55,005 bases of DNA, taken from the NCBI GenBank assembly GCA_018262815.1, contig JADFDN010000001.1, forward strand, positions 1 to 55,005. Reading direction: 5' to 3'. Below, piece by piece: positions 9,312 to 16,146 of the stretch. Position 1 is the stretch's first letter; each line of letters opens with the position of its first letter. The stretch comes from Thiobacillus sp. Lineage in GTDB: Bacteria; Pseudomonadota; Gammaproteobacteria; Burkholderiales; Thiobacillaceae. Under the pieces are notes generated by a model, which saw nothing but the letters and a program-made list of their open reading frames with translations, searched no databases and was not told the origin of the DNA. Position numbers and translations under genes: made by a program.

Positions 9312-9423
9312 GCAGGAGTTGCGGCGCGCAGAACGCGCACCGCTTGAATCGAAAGCCGGATTCTACCCTGTCGCAGCCGCCCGTCCCTTACGGCTGCCGA
9401 CTGTTTGCCGCTTCGACACGGGA

Positions 9424-9439
9424 TGACGGTTTTCCGTCA
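9424..9439. promoter_or_regulatory. Palindrome, candidate enhancer (bEBP binding site)
   Basis: TGACGG-TTTT-CCGTCA about 100 bp upstream of the sigma-54 -24 element. Confidence 0.5.
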
Positions 9440-9534
9440 AACCGATTGTGTCCCCGCTCCGTTCGCTCCGGTAAGGAATTTCCACAAGCTTGTTTTATTG
9501 GAAGTTTTTTGCACCAACCCGACAGCGGCCGGGG

Positions 9535-9550
9535 TGGCACAGGCGTTGCA
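9535..9550 (+). promoter_or_regulatory. Sigma-54 (RpoN) -24/-12 promoter
   Basis: TGGCAC-AGGCG-TTGCA is an exact match to TGGCAC-N5-TTGCW, ending 34 bp before an ATG preceded by CAGGAG. Confidence 0.8.
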
Positions 9551-9584
9551 AGTAATCAGGCAAGCCCCCTCCCAGGAGATCATC

Positions 9585-9737
9585 ATGAAACTGCAACTCG
9601 GCCAAAACCAACTGGTTCTCGAACTCAGCTCGTCCCCCTTTGCCTGGTTCCACGGCCAGACCGAACGCATGAGCCTGACCAGCCTGTCGCTGATGTTCGT
9701 GCAGTTCTCCCTGTTCGCCCGCCAGCCTGCTGCCTGA
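9585..9737 (+). CDS. 50-aa microprotein, paralogue 1, unknown function
   Basis: RBS CAGGAG; MKLQLGQNQLVLELSSSPFAWFHGQTERMSLTSLSLMFVQFSLFARQPAA; homologous to the next ORF. Confidence 0.75.
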   Translation: MKLQLGQNQLVLELSSSPFAWFHGQTERMSLTSLSLMFVQFSLFARQPAA

Positions 9738-9892
9738 TGCAAGTAGGTCGAGCCACCAGCGTGAGCCTCAGTCTGTCCCGCTCGCCGCTGGGCTTCTTCA
9801 GCGGCAGCACCTGCCGCATGTCGATGTTCAGCCTGACGCTGCTGTTCATCGAGTTCCGGGTGTTGCGGCGCATCCCTGCGCAGTGCGCCTGA
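9737..9892 (+). CDS. 51-aa microprotein, paralogue 2, unknown function
   Basis: TGATG stop/start overlap with paralogue 1; MQVGRATSVSLSLSRSPLGFFSGSTCRMSMFSLTLLFIEFRVLRRIPAQCA. Confidence 0.7.
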   Translation: MQVGRATSVSLSLSRSPLGFFSGSTCRMSMFSLTLLFIEFRVLRRIPAQCA

Positions 9893-9895
9893 CCC

Positions 9896-11182
9896 CTAGC
9901 GGGGAATTTCCAGCACGGCCTCCAGGCCTCCTGCCGGACGATTCCTGAGCGTCACCTTCCAGCCGTTTGATTCCGCCAGCTGGCGCACGATCGCCAGCCC
10001 CAGTCCGGTTCCTCCCGTCGCCTGCGAGCGCGAGGCCTCCAGCCGGTAAAACGGCCTGAACACTTTTTCCAGCTGATCGTCCGGAATGCCCAAGCCGGCA
10101 TCGCGCACGACCACCCTCGCCTGCCTGTCCGAACACTCCAGCTCCAGGTCGACCGGCATATCGCCGCCGTAGCGCTGGGCATTCTGGATCAGGTTGGCGA
10201 CGATTTGCCTCACCGCCAGACGGCTGGCGTCGATCTCGCACGGGACGGCGCCCGGCCACGACAATCCCGCATCGGCCGCCACCTCTTCCAGCAAAACCGC
10301 CAGGTCGAAACGCTGCCTCGACTCGGTCTGGGTGGTGCGCGCCAGTTCCAGGTAGCCGGTGATCAGCTTGTTCATGTCCGCCAGATCGGCGGTTGCGCGA
10401 TCGATGCGTGCCGGACTGGGCGCGTCGCGCAGCATTTCTAGATTGAGCTGCAAACGCGTCATCGGCGTGCGCAGGTCATGCGAGATGCCTGCCAGCAAGG
10501 TGGTGCGGTTGTCCAGCAGCTCGCGCACTTCGGTCGCCATGGTATTGAAGCGGCACGCCAGTTCGGCGAGTTCGGCCGGTCCCGTTTCCGGCAGGGGATC
10601 GGGCAACTGGCCCGCGCCCACCTGGCTGGCCGCGTGCGCCGCCCGCGCCAGCGGCACCGTGATGCGGCGCACCAGGAGCAGGGCGGTCAGCAGGCTTAGA
10701 AATGCCCCCAGCGCGATCACGGCAATGGCCGCCAGCGGCGGCTTGACGGCATAGCGGTTAGGGAAGAATCCGACCCGCAGGTCGTGTCCGCCCAGCGGAA
10801 GTTCAAGCCACGCGGCCGCCATATTCGGAACACCGCGCAACACGACCGCGTCGCCGATACGACGGCTCAGCGCAGCCTCGATCTGAGGACGAAACGCAAA
10901 ATCCGGCGCCTCCGCGGTGGCCCCGACGTCTATCGTGGTCAGCCGCAAACCGTGTCGCCGTGCCAGTTCGCGTTCGAACGCGACGCGCGTCTCGGGCGGC
11001 AATTCCACCCAGGTCTGCGCCGACAGCACGATCAGGCCGGCCAGGTCGTCGGCCGAGCGTTCCGCCACCGGCACGATCAGGGTGCGGGTCACCACCCAGA
11101 ACGCCGCTGCCTGAAACACGATGAACGCCAGTGCCAGCGTCAGCGCAGTGCGGGCAAACAGCGATCCGAGGGGGCGGCCCAT
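9896..11182 (-). CDS. Sensor histidine kinase (EnvZ-like; 2 TM, HAMP, HisKA, HATPase)
   Basis: H-box ISHDLRTP, N-box NLIQNA, DAGLGI, GTGLGLAIV. Confidence 0.92.
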   Translation of the reverse strand: MGRPLGSLFARTALTLALAFIVFQAAAFWVVTRTLIVPVAERSADDLAGLIVLSAQTWVELPPETRVAFERELARRHGLRLTTIDVGATAEAPDFAFRPQIEAALSRRIGDAVVLRGVPNMAAAWLELPLGGHDLRVGFFPNRYAVKPPLAAIAVIALGAFLSLLTALLLVRRITVPLARAAHAASQVGAGQLPDPLPETGPAELAELACRFNTMATEVRELLDNRTTLLAGISHDLRTPMTRLQLNLEMLRDAPSPARIDRATADLADMNKLITGYLELARTTQTESRQRFDLAVLLEEVAADAGLSWPGAVPCEIDASRLAVRQIVANLIQNAQRYGGDMPVDLELECSDRQARVVVRDAGLGIPDDQLEKVFRPFYRLEASRSQATGGTGLGLAIVRQLAESNGWKVTLRNRPAGGLEAVLEIPR

Positions 11183-11965: not shown

Positions 11966-12058
11966 AAATCCCCCCTGCGCGAAACAGAGCGCTTACTTTC
12001 CTCAACCAAACTGCGAAGCGTGGAAGCAAGACAAGGCGACCACGGAATGGAGAACGCG

Positions 12059-12340
12059 ATGAACACACGCAAAACATGGATTTTCGGAATGACCGCACTG
12101 GGACTGGCTCTGGCCGCCCCGGTTCACGCTGCGCCCGATTTCATCGATGGTGCGTTCATTGTGGCCAAGCGCGAGCGCGCCGACGAAGTCCGCCCGGACC
12201 CCCGCGATGTCCGCAGGGATGACCGCCGCGCCAACCGGCGCGATGCCGAGCGCGAGGAACCGCGAGGGTACGGCTACGGCTACGAGCGTCGCCAGCAGCA
12301 ACGATCCGAAGACGAGGACCGCCCCCGCGGTCGTCGCTGA
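12059..12340 (+). CDS. Small exported Arg/Asp/Glu-rich protein
   Basis: RBS GGAG; signal peptide ending PVHA; low-complexity mature region containing GYGYGYERR. Confidence 0.7.
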   Translation: MNTRKTWIFGMTALGLALAAPVHAAPDFIDGAFIVAKRERADEVRPDPRDVRRDDRRANRRDAEREEPRGYGYGYERRQQQRSEDEDRPRGRR

Positions 12341-12373
12341 ACCCGCTTGATTCGAAGCAACAGGAGAGTAACG

Positions 12374-12970
12374 ATGACATCACGCACATTGAAAAGCACA
12401 CGCCCCCTGAACACGGCCCTGATCGCCGGGCTGCTTGCCGTCAGCGGCGCGGCGCAGGCCGGCCACGGCGACCGCGACGGCTTCACCACACGCGCCCGGG
12501 TTTTGTCGAGCGTTCCGGTCTACGAAACGATCAACGAACCGCGCCGCGAATGCTGGACCGAAACGGTCGGCTACGAAACCCGCAGCTACCGCGACGGCAG
12601 CAATACCGGCGGCGCGATTCTCGGCGCCATCGCCGGCGGCCTGCTCGGCTCCACCGTCGGCAAGGGCGACGGCAGGGTTGCCGCCGCTGCCGCCGGCGCG
12701 GCGACCGGTGCGGTGGTGGGCGACCGCTGGAACAAGAACGGCACCCGCACCGAATCGATCCCGCAGCAGGTCGAGCGCTGCCGCACCCACGACGACTATC
12801 GTCAGGTCGTGGCCGGCTATGACGTGCGCTATCGCTTCCAGGGCCGCGAATACACCACTTACCTGCCGTACAAGCCTGGCAAGTGGCTGACCCTGGATGT
12901 GGATTTTTCCGTGGCCGAGGGCCGGCGCAACGCACGCTGGCACAACAGCCGCAACGACTGGGACGACTGA
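12374..12970 (+). CDS. Glycine-zipper 2TM domain protein (YcfJ-like)
   Basis: RBS AGGAG; signal peptide; GGAILGAIAGGLLG..VG.G.G zipper; Cys pair; GYDVRY...PG C-terminal motif. Confidence 0.85.
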   Translation: MTSRTLKSTRPLNTALIAGLLAVSGAAQAGHGDRDGFTTRARVLSSVPVYETINEPRRECWTETVGYETRSYRDGSNTGGAILGAIAGGLLGSTVGKGDGRVAAAAAGAATGAVVGDRWNKNGTRTESIPQQVERCRTHDDYRQVVAGYDVRYRFQGREYTTYLPYKPGKWLTLDVDFSVAEGRRNARWHNSRNDWDD

Positions 12971-13015
12971 CGCTCCCCCGAGCGCGGCCATTTCGAACCT
13001 GAAAGGAGAAACGCC

Positions 13016-13369
13016 ATGTTACGCACCCTTCTGATCGCAACCGCCCTGTTGACCGCCTCCGGCACCGCGCTGGCCCACAGCGACCATGGCCATGGCCGCG
13101 TGGTATCGGTCGAGCCGCACTTCAGCATCTCGTTCGGCACCCGCCATCATGACGGTTTCCGCGTGCTCTATGAATCCGGCGGCTCGCGTTACTGGACGCA
13201 CACGCCCCACCATCCGGGCCACGTCATCGTGCTGCCGCAGCACCATTACCGGGTGAAGCACGTGCATCACTATCGGGATTACGGCCGCGGCTGGGATGAC
13301 CGCCGCGATGGCTGGCGCGACGATCACCGCAAGCACCATCGCGAGCACCGCCGCCACGGCCGCGACTAG
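13016..13369 (+). CDS. Exported His-rich protein, apparent zipper-less paralogue of the upstream gene
   Basis: RBS AAGGAG; signal peptide ending ALA; 20 His; G(F/Y)xVxYxxxGxxYxTxxPxxPG motif shared with 12374-12970. Confidence 0.78.
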   Translation: MLRTLLIATALLTASGTALAHSDHGHGRVVSVEPHFSISFGTRHHDGFRVLYESGGSRYWTHTPHHPGHVIVLPQHHYRVKHVHHYRDYGRGWDDRRDGWRDDHRKHHREHRRHGRD

Positions 13370-14267: not shown

Positions 14268-15698
14268 TCAGCCCTTGATGCAGACCAGCGGCTTGAGCCT
14301 GGCGACCTTGCGCGCCAGCCCGGCACGGTCGGCGGCCTCGACCACGGCGCTGACATCCTTGTAGGCACCCGGCGCCTCTTCCGCCACGCCGCGCAGCGAA
14401 GGGCTGCGGATCAGTATCCCCCGACTGGCGAGCTCATCAACCAGCGCCCGGCCGTGCCACTGGCGGGTGGCCTGATGACGGCTCATGGCACGCCCGGCGC
14501 CATGGCAGGCTGAACTGAAGGCGCGCGTCGCCCCCGTCTCGGTGCCGACCAGGATGTAGGACGCCGTGCCCATGCTGCCACCGATCAGCACCGGCTGGCC
14601 GATGTCGCGCAAGTCGCCGGGCAGTGCCGGGTGGCCTGGCCCGAAGGCGCGCGTCGCGCCCTTGCGGTGCACGTAGAGACGGCGCGTCCGGCCGTCGACG
14701 GTGTGCGGTTCCTGCTTGCAGGTGTTGTGCGAAACGTCGTAGATCAGGTCGAGGCGGGTGCCCGGAACGATATCGGAAAAGACCTGACGCGCGAGATGGG
14801 TGATGACCTGTCTGTTTGCCAGGGCACAGTTGACCGCCGCGCGCATGGCGCCGAGATAGGCCTGCCCCAGCGCTGACTGGATCGGCGCGCAGGCGAGTTC
14901 GCGGTCGGGCAGCTCGATGCCATGGCCGGGCGCGGCAATCACCATCTGCTTGAGGAATTCGCTGCCGATCTGGTGGCCCAGCCCGCGCGAGCCGCAATGA
15001 ATGCTGACCACCACCTCGTCCTGGCGCAAGCGGAAACGGTCGGCCGCTTTCGTGTCGTAGATCTCGACGATTTCCTGCAGTTCGAGGTAATGGTTGCCGG
15101 AACCCAGCGTGCCGATCTCGTCGCGCTGGCGACGCTTGGCCTGTTCGGACACCTGGCCGGGCTCGGCGCCGGCCATGCAACCGTGTTCTTCGATGCGATC
15201 GAGATCGGCCTCGCTGCCATAGCCGTGCTCGACCGCCCAGCGCGCGCCGCAGCGCAGCATCGCATCCATCTCGTGGGGGCTGAGGCGCAACGGGCCGGTG
15301 CTGCCCAGCCCGGCCGGAATGTGGGCGAACAGGCGATCGGCGAGCCGTTCCTTGAGCGGGAGGATGTCCGCGGAGCGGAGGCCGGTATGCAGAGTGCGCA
15401 CCCCGCAGGAAATGTCGAAGCCCACCCCGCCGGCTGATACCACGCCTCCTTCGTCGGCATCGAACGCGGCCACGCCGCCGATCGGGAAACCGTAACCCCA
15501 GTGCGCATCGGGCATGGCGTAGGCTGCCTGGACGATACCCGGCAACGTGGCGACGTTGGTGAGTTGCTCAAAGACCTTGTCATCCATGTCGCGGATCAGG
15601 GCCTGATCGGCATAGATCACTGCCGGCACGCGCATTTTCCCGAACGGCTTGACCCGCCATTCGACCTCCGACACCTGCTTGAAAAGGGCTGGATTCAT
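14268..15698 (-). CDS. rtcB: RtcB family RNA ligase (archease-associated type)
   Basis: PDAH.GYGFPIGG, GFDISCG, GTLGSGNHYLE, HCGSRG, HRKGAT, CHGAGR, EEAPGAYKD. Confidence 0.95.
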   Translation of the reverse strand: MNPALFKQVSEVEWRVKPFGKMRVPAVIYADQALIRDMDDKVFEQLTNVATLPGIVQAAYAMPDAHWGYGFPIGGVAAFDADEGGVVSAGGVGFDISCGVRTLHTGLRSADILPLKERLADRLFAHIPAGLGSTGPLRLSPHEMDAMLRCGARWAVEHGYGSEADLDRIEEHGCMAGAEPGQVSEQAKRRQRDEIGTLGSGNHYLELQEIVEIYDTKAADRFRLRQDEVVVSIHCGSRGLGHQIGSEFLKQMVIAAPGHGIELPDRELACAPIQSALGQAYLGAMRAAVNCALANRQVITHLARQVFSDIVPGTRLDLIYDVSHNTCKQEPHTVDGRTRRLYVHRKGATRAFGPGHPALPGDLRDIGQPVLIGGSMGTASYILVGTETGATRAFSSACHGAGRAMSRHQATRQWHGRALVDELASRGILIRSPSLRGVAEEAPGAYKDVSAVVEAADRAGLARKVARLKPLVCIKG

Positions 15699-15699
15699 T

Positions 15700-16146
15700 T
15701 CACACGTCCACCACGCACTGGGCCTGCCATCCCCCGGACGCCGTCCTGCCTACTTTCAATTCGGTATAGGTGGCGCCCTTGACCTCGACCGCGGGCTGGT
15801 GCCTGTCGAGATCGATCGGCTCGCCCCAGGCGGTGGCGCTGAGGCGCGGTCCGTCCAGGCTGACCTCAAAGCGGCTGAACAGCATGTGGCGCGCCGCCAT
15901 TTCCAGTATCAGCGCGTTGAGCCAGTCGACCAGCAGGAGCTCATCATCCGGCGCTTCGCAGCAAATGGCCACGGCCGTGTCCGGTGCAACCCGGGCCGGA
16001 TCGGCGATGACGGCCGTCATGGCCAGCGCGGCCTGCTCGAAGGCCGCCTCGCGCGTGGGCCCGACGCCACGCACGCCCATGTCGGCCTGATGCGGAAAGT
16101 GCGTCCAGTACTCGTCCTCATTGCCGGCGTCAGCTGCTTGAAACAC
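15700..16146 (-). CDS. Archease
   Basis: H.AD.G motif, LLVDWLN.L, EVKGATY, C-terminal VDV; ends 1 bp before the rtcB start. Confidence 0.92.

What the first reader, a model, noticed from the sequence alone, without database searches (positions are those of the whole stretch)
9424..9892. Sigma-54-driven operon of two paralogous ~50-aa microproteins
Seen: ORFs 9585-9737 (50 aa) and 9737-9892 (51 aa) are joined by a TGATG overlap, and the first has a CAGGAG RBS. They align without gaps at 19 of 38 positions (LxLSxSPxxxFxGxTxRMSxxSLxLxFxxFxxxxRxPA), with many conservative swaps elsewhere, which points to selection at the protein level. Upstream are an exact TGGCAC-N5-TTGCA (9535-9550), an AT-rich tract and the palindrome TGACGG-N4-CCGTCA (9424-9439). 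Established: this layout matches an RpoN promoter with a bEBP enhancer about 100 bp upstream. The ORF track shows the peptides only as tails of longer spurious ORFs. I recognise no family and see no signal peptide. Inference: the alternating hydrophobic/Ser pattern suggests beta-strands, so they may form a heteromeric beta assembly (possibly amyloid-like), insert in membranes, or serve as precursors modified in trans. This is the best candidate for an undescribed system in the window.
Basis: partly seen in the sequence, partly recalled or inferred. Interest (0 to 1): 0.85.

Follow-up and report, generated by a model that had tools for sequence, protein, structure and literature searches.

The report
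Pilus-linked microprotein pair in sulfur bacteria
Two tiny unnamed genes, conserved across sulfur-oxidising Thiobacillus and relatives, share an enhancer sequence with a pilus gene and are usually lost together with that pilus system's activator, so they are likely switched on with the pilus and likely help tune it.

Summary
In detail: two paralogous ORFs (50 and 51 aa) under purifying selection (dN/dS 0.13 and 0.26) follow a conserved enhancer, IHF-like site and sigma-54 promoter. They belong to an unnamed family: a pair in Thiobacillus and three other genera, a single copy in five more Thiobacillaceae genera and three other betaproteobacterial families, with no Pfam, NCBIfam, PHROG or PDB match. 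AlphaFold predicts a five-strand beta-meander; the sequence pattern suggests one hydrophobic face. New here: the palindrome is the enhancer also found before the pilin gene of an uncharacterised MSHA-like type IV filament cluster beside rpoN. A motif learnt from pilin promoters alone (TGACGGAATTCCGTCA) recognises 30 of 30 Thiobacillus microprotein promoters. Across 150 family genomes the microprotein tracks that cluster's sigma-54 activator (97 both, 41 neither, 12 discordant), not PilR or the neighbouring kinase, and in 13 double-negative loci the whole module is missing. PrsR co-occurs too and is set aside only by motif geometry. The activator is far more widespread than the microprotein, so it is an accessory, most likely a membrane-side tuning factor (inferred). 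Amyloid, membrane-insertion and precursor ideas are unsupported. Function is untested.

The parts
9403..9418 (+). Upstream, weaker enhancer site (site A), 21 bp before the palindrome
   Evidence: TCGAC half conserved in 25 of 30 genus loci; the tandem 20-21 bp arrangement is also seen at pilin promoters
9424..9439 (.). Palindromic 16-bp enhancer (site B), predicted binding site of the pilus-cluster sigma-54 activator
   Evidence: Relaxed match in 30 of 30 loci, exact in 22; matches the consensus learnt from 16 pilin promoters alone
9483..9495 (.). IHF-like bending site within the AT-rich tract
   Evidence: Conserved CAW-N4/5-TGWTW at 51-53 bp from the promoter in 27 of 30 loci; IHF consensus recalled, binding untested
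9535..9550 (+). Sigma-54 (-24/-12) promoter; start expected at 9561
   Evidence: 30 of 30 genus loci and 25 of 25 distant loci examined; RNA-library contigs begin at 9581-9587 (weak)
9573..9578 (+). Ribosome-binding site CAGGAG
   Evidence: GGAG before the start in 26 of 30 loci
9585..9737 (+). Microprotein 1, 50 aa, predicted five-strand beta-meander
   Evidence: dN/dS 0.13 over 27 sequences; AlphaFold pLDDT 85; homologues
9737..9892 (+). Microprotein 2, 51 aa, paralogue coupled by a stop-start overlap
   Evidence: dN/dS 0.26 over 25 sequences; TGATG in 23 and TAATG in 2 of 30 loci
9896..11182 (-). Convergent histidine kinase of an OmpR-type pair: syntenic neighbour, not part of the module
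   Evidence: Pfam HAMP, HisKA, HATPase_c; present in 36 of 41 genomes lacking the microprotein

Best explanation
The locus encodes two conserved 50-residue proteins, predicted to fold as amphipathic beta-sheets, behind a sigma-54 promoter whose enhancer also precedes the pilin gene of an MSHA-like pilus cluster, so they are likely switched on by that cluster's activator and likely act as a paired, membrane-side factor that tunes the pilus programme. Steps: (1, shown by sequence) tandem enhancer, IHF-like site, -24/-12 promoter, strong ribosome site, two coupled ORFs. (2, inferred from shared motif and co-loss) the REC-AAA-HTH activator encoded in the pilus cluster next to rpoN, probably fed by the kinase-like protein divergent from the pilin gene, binds the 16-bp sites and induces the microproteins together with the pilin, a YceI protein and an outer-membrane barrel protein. 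(3, predicted) each chain is a five-strand meander with one hydrophobic face and a hydrophobic hairpin tip; the faces would be buried in a homo-oligomer where the gene is single and a 1:1 hetero-oligomer where it is duplicated. (4, inferred, weakest) lacking an export signal, the basic oligomer would sit on the inner face of the cytoplasmic membrane and act as a feedback brake or tuning factor on the kinase/activator pair. My odds: real proteins 0.97, sigma-54 dependence 0.93, this activator 0.75, feedback/tuning role about 0.4.
For: Coding: dN/dS 0.13 and 0.26 in frame against 0.76-10 in the other forward frames; variation highest at third positions. Shared enhancer: a matrix built only from microprotein promoters ranks, among 66 sigma-54-like sites of this genome, the pilin promoter and the barrel-protein promoter second and third (14.0, 13.8; next 7.6), at 109 and 110 bp against 111. 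The reverse test: de novo search on 16 pilin promoters picks width 16 and TGACGGAATTCCGTCA; it scores 30 of 30 genus and 20 of 25 distant microprotein promoters above the shuffled 95th percentile. Co-occurrence in 150 family genomes: 97 both, 41 neither, 8 microprotein only, 4 activator only; 15 of 15 genera agree on presence. Controls in the 41: PilR-like 33, neighbouring kinase 36. In 13 of 30 kinase loci from those genomes glyQ lies 61-107 bp from the kinase, with no promoter or ORF between. Activator and pilin gene are 13-17 kb apart in one cluster in 4 of 5 complete genomes; the fifth lacks both and the microprotein. Fold: pLDDT 85, five strands; alternating hydrophobic columns across 36 members. 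RNA-library contigs of four studies start at 9581-9587 and two span both ORFs.
Against: No experiment shows binding, transcription start, translation or a partner. PrsR co-occurs about as well (8 of 8 positives tested, 6 of 41 negatives) and its 17-bp box shares the left half-site; it is set aside only by motif tests that used four boxes. Eight genomes hold the microprotein without a detected activator, some rated 99-100% complete. Five of 25 distant promoters do not score. The activator is in 174 of 401 order genomes, the microprotein convincingly in 15, so the link is one-way. The assembly is 82% complete and lacks PilR and PrsR, so its activator list is incomplete. Kin are not independent: the 150 genomes represent only a handful of loss events. 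The feedback role has no direct evidence; no fold match points to a function.
Confidence: 0.45

Rival explanations
1. Same regulon, but the microproteins are accessory parts of pilus assembly (for example an adaptor on the motor or a handler of the membrane pilin pool) rather than signalling feedback.
For: Co-regulated with the major pilin-like gene; strong ribosome site, coupled translation and presence in many RNA libraries fit a stoichiometric part.
Against: Encoded far from the cluster; not found in about 160 of 174 order genomes that hold the activator, nor in 5 genomes with the closest activators searched again with the wider profile.
Confidence: 0.2
2. The proteins self-assemble into a beta-rich polymer (amyloid-like filament or membrane-bound barrel) made during surface attachment.
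For: A single amphipathic sheet with free edge strands could extend edge to edge; Ser/Thr-rich alternating pattern.
Against: No export signal and no export or nucleator gene seen at the loci examined; strands of 4-8 residues are short for a bilayer; no structural match to an amyloid or pore.
Confidence: 0.13
3. The enhancer is read by PrsR, and the pair belongs to the PEP-CTERM/exopolysaccharide programme.
For: PrsR is in 8 of 8 positive and only 6 of 41 negative genomes; shared left half-site; site A can be read as a 17-mer; one PEP-CTERM gene of this genome scores with the 16-bp tandem matrix.
Against: TTTACA, the hallmark of the PrsR box in PMC1569441, is in 0 of 30 promoter windows; the PrsR matrix scores 6 of 30, 3 of 25 and 1 of 16 promoters, and PrsR boxes score under 3 with the pilin matrix.
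Confidence: 0.12
4. The pair modulates the adjacent OmpR-type two-component system, in the manner of small connector proteins.
For: Convergent synteny with the kinase is kept across Thiobacillaceae.
Against: The kinase is kept in 36 of 41 genomes without the microprotein, and in two other families the microprotein sits among unrelated genes.
Confidence: 0.07
5. The peptides are precursors modified in trans, or the conserved unit is an RNA.
For: Ser/Thr-rich, short; one sub-threshold Rfam hit over the enhancer.
Against: Full-length fold pattern is conserved with codon-type variation; transcript folds no better than shuffles (z -0.78); the Rfam hit is under the gathering score and lies on the promoter, not the ORFs.
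Confidence: 0.03

Closest known systems
PEP-CTERM box regulon of PrsK/PrsR (PMC1569441, passages read; PMC9850573, passages read)
   Same: Sigma-54 promoter with an upstream, sometimes repeated enhancer; small operons scattered away from the regulator; found by phylogenetic profile; surface-related programme; shared left half-site.
   Different: Enhancer is a 16-bp palindrome without TTTACA, ending about 75-115 bp upstream rather than about 63; products here are 50-aa proteins with no signal peptide or PEP-CTERM tail.
PilS/PilR control of pilA (recalled; the PilR label for the query is from its domain layout and my recall)
   Same: A sigma-54 activator and sensor driving a pilin gene through an upstream enhancer and IHF.
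   Different: A different activator (37% identical) and a different pilus system; PilR is kept in 33 of 41 genomes lacking the microprotein; the canonical pilA promoter here has another site.
MSHA pilus (definition in PMC6668835, passages read)
   Same: The linked cluster has an MshL-like secretin, an MshEN-bearing assembly ATPase, a platform protein, an ExeA/MshM-like ATPase and pilins.
   Different: Secretin scores 246.9 against a cut-off of 250.2; this genome holds a second MSHA-like locus only 29-38% identical; the cluster carries its own sigma-54 activator and kinase-like gene.
Small feedback proteins of two-component systems such as MgrB and SafA (recalled)
   Same: About 50 aa, transcribed under the system they would tune, accessory and patchily distributed.
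   Different: Those are single membrane helices; this family is predicted all-beta with no transmembrane helix. No homology.
CsrA/RsmA (recalled)
   Same: Small, basic, five beta-strands, dimeric.
   Different: No Pfam, NCBIfam, PDB sequence or fold match; no C-terminal helix.

Membership tests
Sigma-54, enhancer-dependent promoter | -24 GG / -12 GC consensus at exact spacing | tested here: met
   30 of 30 genus loci, 28 exact
Sigma-54, enhancer-dependent promoter | Conserved upstream enhancer at fixed distance, with a bending site between | tested here: met
   109-113 bp in 28 of 30; IHF-like site in 27 of 30
Sigma-54, enhancer-dependent promoter | Transcription lost without RpoN; start at +1 | not testable with these tools
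   Only assembled RNA contigs were available
Regulon of the MSHA-like cluster activator | Same enhancer as the cluster's pilin promoter | tested here: met
   Reciprocal matrix tests
Regulon of the MSHA-like cluster activator | Presence depends on the activator | tested here: inconclusive
   138 of 150 concordant, 8 microprotein-only; PrsR tracks similarly
Regulon of the MSHA-like cluster activator | Direct binding of the activator | not testable with these tools
   Needs binding assay or ChIP
PrsR / PEP-CTERM regulon | 17-nt box ending in TTTACA | tested here: not met
   0 of 30 genus and 3 of 25 distant promoter windows hold TTTAC[AG]
PrsR / PEP-CTERM regulon | Product with signal peptide and PEP-CTERM tail | tested here: not met
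   No Pfam hit; sequence shows neither
PilR regulon | Co-occurrence with PilR | tested here: not met
   PilR-like in 33 of 41 genomes lacking the microprotein
MSHA pilus (linked cluster) | MshL secretin above curated cut-off | tested here: inconclusive
   Best family TIGR02519, 246.9 bits against 250.2
MSHA pilus (linked cluster) | MshE-type ATPase with c-di-GMP motif, platform, MshM-like ATPase | tested here: met
   NF053729 above cut-off, MshEN, GspF/PilC-like, AAA_22 plus SPOR
Any described small-protein family (Pfam, NCBIfam, PHROGs, PDB sequences) | Profile match at curated cut-off | tested here: not met
   0 of 2 in Pfam and NCBIfam; of 36 members best Pfam E 0.062, no PHROG; PDB best E 0.3
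CsrA/RsmA | Fold match to the strand-swapped dimer | tested here: inconclusive
   Not among listed rows; a monomer model may miss it
Membrane-helix microproteins (MgrB-like) | One transmembrane helix | tested here: not met
   All-beta model; highest 19-residue hydropathy 0.95 and 1.26
Functional amyloid (curli/Fap-like) | Signal peptide and dedicated export genes | tested here: not met
   None in the sequences or at the loci examined
Functional amyloid (curli/Fap-like) | Cross-beta fibrils | not testable with these tools
   Needs purified protein
Rfam P31 sRNA | Score at gathering threshold | tested here: not met
   33.2 bits against 40

The most novel reading that the evidence does not exclude
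A widespread betaproteobacterial MSHA-like pilus has its own undescribed sigma-54 regulon, and in sulfur oxidisers this regulon is braked by a new class of all-beta, membrane-docking microprotein that evolved from a homo-oligomer into an obligate heterodimer: a beta-sheet counterpart of the helical feedback microproteins of two-component systems.
Probability: 0.3. Interest if true: 0.8.

Novelty: new variant of a known kind. Interest (0 to 1): 0.62.

Why it matters
It turns an anonymous, often mis-annotated pair of small genes into a testable regulatory hypothesis, and in doing so defines a likely binding site and target list (pilin, YceI, outer-membrane barrel, in some strains cytochrome operons) for an unnamed sigma-54 activator found in 174 of 401 genomes of the order. 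Thiobacillus and its relatives attach to sulfur and mineral surfaces, so a dedicated pilus programme bears on how they colonise them (general knowledge). All-beta bacterial microproteins with regulatory roles are rare among described small proteins (recalled).

Tried and rejected
Family searches of the two proteins and of 36 members: nothing. ESM Atlas: top scores 0.84 with unnamed clusters, chance level; nothing for a single-copy member. Fold searches: no Foldseek match at E 0.001 in PDB or viral models, best VIA Z 5.9, a common arrangement; this shows neither novelty nor absence. Complex prediction of ORF1 with ORF2: no answer, score 0.00, no evidence either way. Folding a 105-aa database record that joins both types (possibly a sequencing error) gave pLDDT 51, uninformative; I did not search with it. 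Longer forms were upstream mis-starts, frameshift joins or a likely chimera (6 of 43 inspected); two long cluster members were unrelated proteins: no informative fusion. Rfam P31 match rejected: under threshold, and P31 has no detected transcript in the table passage of PMC1524904. Structured RNA rejected. No sigma-70 promoter or intrinsic terminator. Not found in 400 class genomes beyond one E 0.003 fragment, in viral contigs, plasmids, or metagenome contigs with one distant query. Seven weak order hits (E 0.001-0.01) were dropped; three were inspected and were not homologues. The loose pattern also hit nifH/nifE promoters, where NifA-type sites have similar geometry (recalled), so raw pattern counts were not used as regulon evidence. 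RNA run X1 covers the whole stretch and X7 holds a 2-kb contig, so both may be DNA; lack of cover over the promoter in other runs proves nothing alone. Earlier findings of the scan: none.

Full report
Observation. The two ORFs are 19 of 38 identical without gaps and are each other's only significant match in the 2.5-Mb, 82% complete assembly (E 1.6e-7; next 0.37). Source names on close homologues say Thiobacillus, all as hypothetical proteins, often with false N-terminal extensions.

They are real genes. A single-sequence search found the pair in 30 of 36 genus genomes and 0 of 24 genomes of other families; a profile found it in 44 of 44 genus genomes of a second draw. Over the 30 loci fetched, less two near-duplicates and those whose start could not be placed, pooled pairwise dN/dS is 0.13 for ORF1 (27 sequences) and 0.26 for ORF2 (25); the other forward frames give 0.76-10, and the antisense frame that shares codon positions 0.23 and 0.40, as expected of a shadow (pairs are not independent). 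GGAG precedes ORF1 in 26 of 30 and a stop-start overlap joins the ORFs in 25 of 30. The predicted transcript folds no better than shuffles (z -0.78). Sixteen of 23 listed runs holding part of the stretch are on record as RNA; I laid eight. Contigs from four studies begin at 9581-9587, just after the expected start at 9561, and two single contigs span both ORFs. These are assembled contigs of relatives and only a weak hint.

The family. Searching for the promoter pattern led to single-copy orthologues that the first profile had missed. With a wider profile, 105 of 150 family genomes hold the gene: a pair in four genera, a single copy in five, none in six. In 401 genomes of the order, 15 including this one had convincing hits, in four families; named records include Sulfuriferula and Sulfurirhabdus. 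It was not found in 400 genomes drawn from the class. Profiles of ORF2 and of the distant single-copy group align at probability 97.7. A tree of 36 members (52 columns, weak) puts ORF1 on one side of a branch at 98/96 and the single-copy forms at 86/95, consistent with one duplication. All 25 distant loci examined keep a sigma-54-like promoter, and in Thiobacillaceae the gene sits between glyQ (sometimes with other genes between) and a convergent kinase. No Pfam, NCBIfam, PHROG or PDB sequence matches; a search of 1.84 billion representatives with the first profile returned 38 proteins, 37 of them short family members or their mis-started forms and one chance repeat protein.

Fold. AlphaFold on ORF1 with 30 rows gives five strands (2-5, 8-14, 19-25, 29-36, 39-46), pLDDT 85, pTM 0.55. 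Column averages over 36 members show hydrophobic positions 3, 5, 10, 12, 22, 29, 31, 34, 36, 37, 39, 41, 43 and near-fixed F22, small 24, T26, R28, S33 and E/Q40. I infer one hydrophobic face and a hydrophobic tip at the 36-38 and 18-19 turns; I did not see coordinates. Members are mostly basic (pI over 9 in 32 of 36) and lack a transmembrane helix. Fold searches gave nothing clear.

The promoter and its activator. The sigma-54 site, the palindrome 109-113 bp upstream, a second site 21 bp further up and an IHF-like site are conserved while the DNA between them varies. A matrix built only from these promoters, applied to 66 sigma-54-like sites of this genome, ranked second and third the promoters of an N-methyl pilin-like gene and of an 893-aa outer-membrane barrel protein, at almost the same distance; a tandem-site version added a YceI gene and one PEP-CTERM gene above the maximum of 3000 random positions (its training included relatives' microprotein and pilin sites). 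The pilin gene belongs to a type IV filament cluster next to the rpoN operon, with a REC-AAA-HTH activator, ExeA-like ATPase, MshL-like secretin, MshEN ATPase, platform, minor pilins and a kinase-like gene divergent from the pilin. It is distinct from a second MSHA-like locus of this genome. For the reverse test I examined 24 cluster regions, found the pilin in 19 and a sigma-54 site in 16 (one added by hand; 7 from this genus). A de novo palindrome search on those 16 chose width 16 and TGACGGAATTCCGTCA; that matrix scored 30 of 30 genus and 20 of 25 distant microprotein promoters above the shuffled 95th percentile.

Co-loss. In the same 150 genomes: 97 with both activator and microprotein, 41 with neither, 8 with microprotein only, 4 with activator only. 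In the 41, a PilR-like activator was present in 33 and the neighbouring kinase in 36. Of 30 kinase loci fetched from them, none showed a sigma-54 site or a profile hit downstream, and in 13 glyQ lay 61-107 bp from the kinase: the module is simply missing. Against: PrsR is in only 6 of the 41 and in 8 of 8 positives tested, so the profile cannot separate it from the cluster activator. The motif can, weakly: PrsR boxes here are 17-mers ending TTTACA, as described in PMC1569441 (passages read), and a matrix from four of them scored 6 of 30, 3 of 25 and 1 of 16 promoters. The activator is in 174 of 401 order genomes (one of them, G447, unpublished), and in 13 of the 14 others with the microprotein, so the microprotein is an accessory of one lineage or has diverged beyond detection elsewhere.

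How it likely works. The cluster's activator, helped by IHF, would induce the pair together with the pilin. The chains, with no export signal, would bury their hydrophobic faces in an oligomer, homomeric where the gene is single and 1:1 heteromeric where coupled translation yields both, and dock on the inner membrane through the hydrophobic tip and basic residues. I favour a feedback or tuning role on the kinase/activator pair because the gene carries the genome's best enhancer, is lost with the activator, and is dispensable for the pilus in most lineages. This last step is inference; an assembly role or a polymer remain open.

Novelty. Nine paper searches found no description of these proteins, of this enhancer or of this activator; two returned no papers, and the library lacks most subscription journals. 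I read passages only of PMC1524904, PMC1569441, PMC6668835 and PMC9850573; others were seen as listings. No supplements were read; transcriptome tables for Thiobacillus could bear on expression. Statements on IHF, PilR, NifA, MgrB, SafA and CsrA are recalled. The promoter logic is a known kind; the protein family and the regulon are, as far as these searches reach, undescribed. Verdict: real, new variant of a known kind, interest 0.62.

Noticed in passing
G067:C32:82842-82968 (L076) and G010:C23:63393-63518 (L083): A near-copy of the whole enhancer-IHF-sigma-54 module heads a c-type cytochrome operon 2.7 kb upstream of the microprotein pair in one genome, and precedes an EB_dh-family heme protein in another: promoter capture by electron-transfer genes.
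   Followed up: partly
G000:C135:29787-34022 (L091): The same promoter type drives an 893-aa protein with a BBP2 barrel and two further outer-membrane barrel domains, followed by a 401-aa exported protein of no known family.
   Followed up: partly
G000:C105:15713-20599, C46, C128:3479-6940; whole in L125 and L126-L127: An uncharacterised MSHA-like type IV filament cluster beside rpoN, with its own highly conserved sigma-54 activator, a kinase-like protein with no HisKA match, and a 558-aa first gene of no known family; activator in 174 of 401 order genomes.
   Followed up: partly
L185 (G498:C1:511001-531000), upstream of the cluster pilin: A different short ORF of about 41 codons with a hydrophobic stretch lies between a sigma-54-like site and the pilin gene.
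   Followed up: no
G000:C85:8033-8269 (- strand): A 79-aa membrane protein of unknown kind behind a sigma-54 promoter with a PrsR-type 17-bp box.
   Followed up: no
G000:C98:7190 (- strand) and L079, L080, L082: A YceI-family gene carries the same tandem enhancer and sigma-54 promoter in four genomes.
   Followed up: partly
L064, L067, L071 (genus g39): ORF1 and ORF2 lie in one frame or a few bases apart instead of overlapping, and one database record reads through both (P0197), possibly a sequencing error.
   Followed up: partly
window 9418-9510 (- strand): Sub-threshold match to Rfam P31, a family whose founding member showed no transcript in the table of PMC1524904.
   Followed up: yes
window 12020-13369 (+) and 14268-16146 (-): Three small exported-looking proteins (one glycine-zipper) divergent from the OmpR-type pair and syntenic across the family; further on, an RtcB-like and archease-like gene pair (names from recall).
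   Followed up: no
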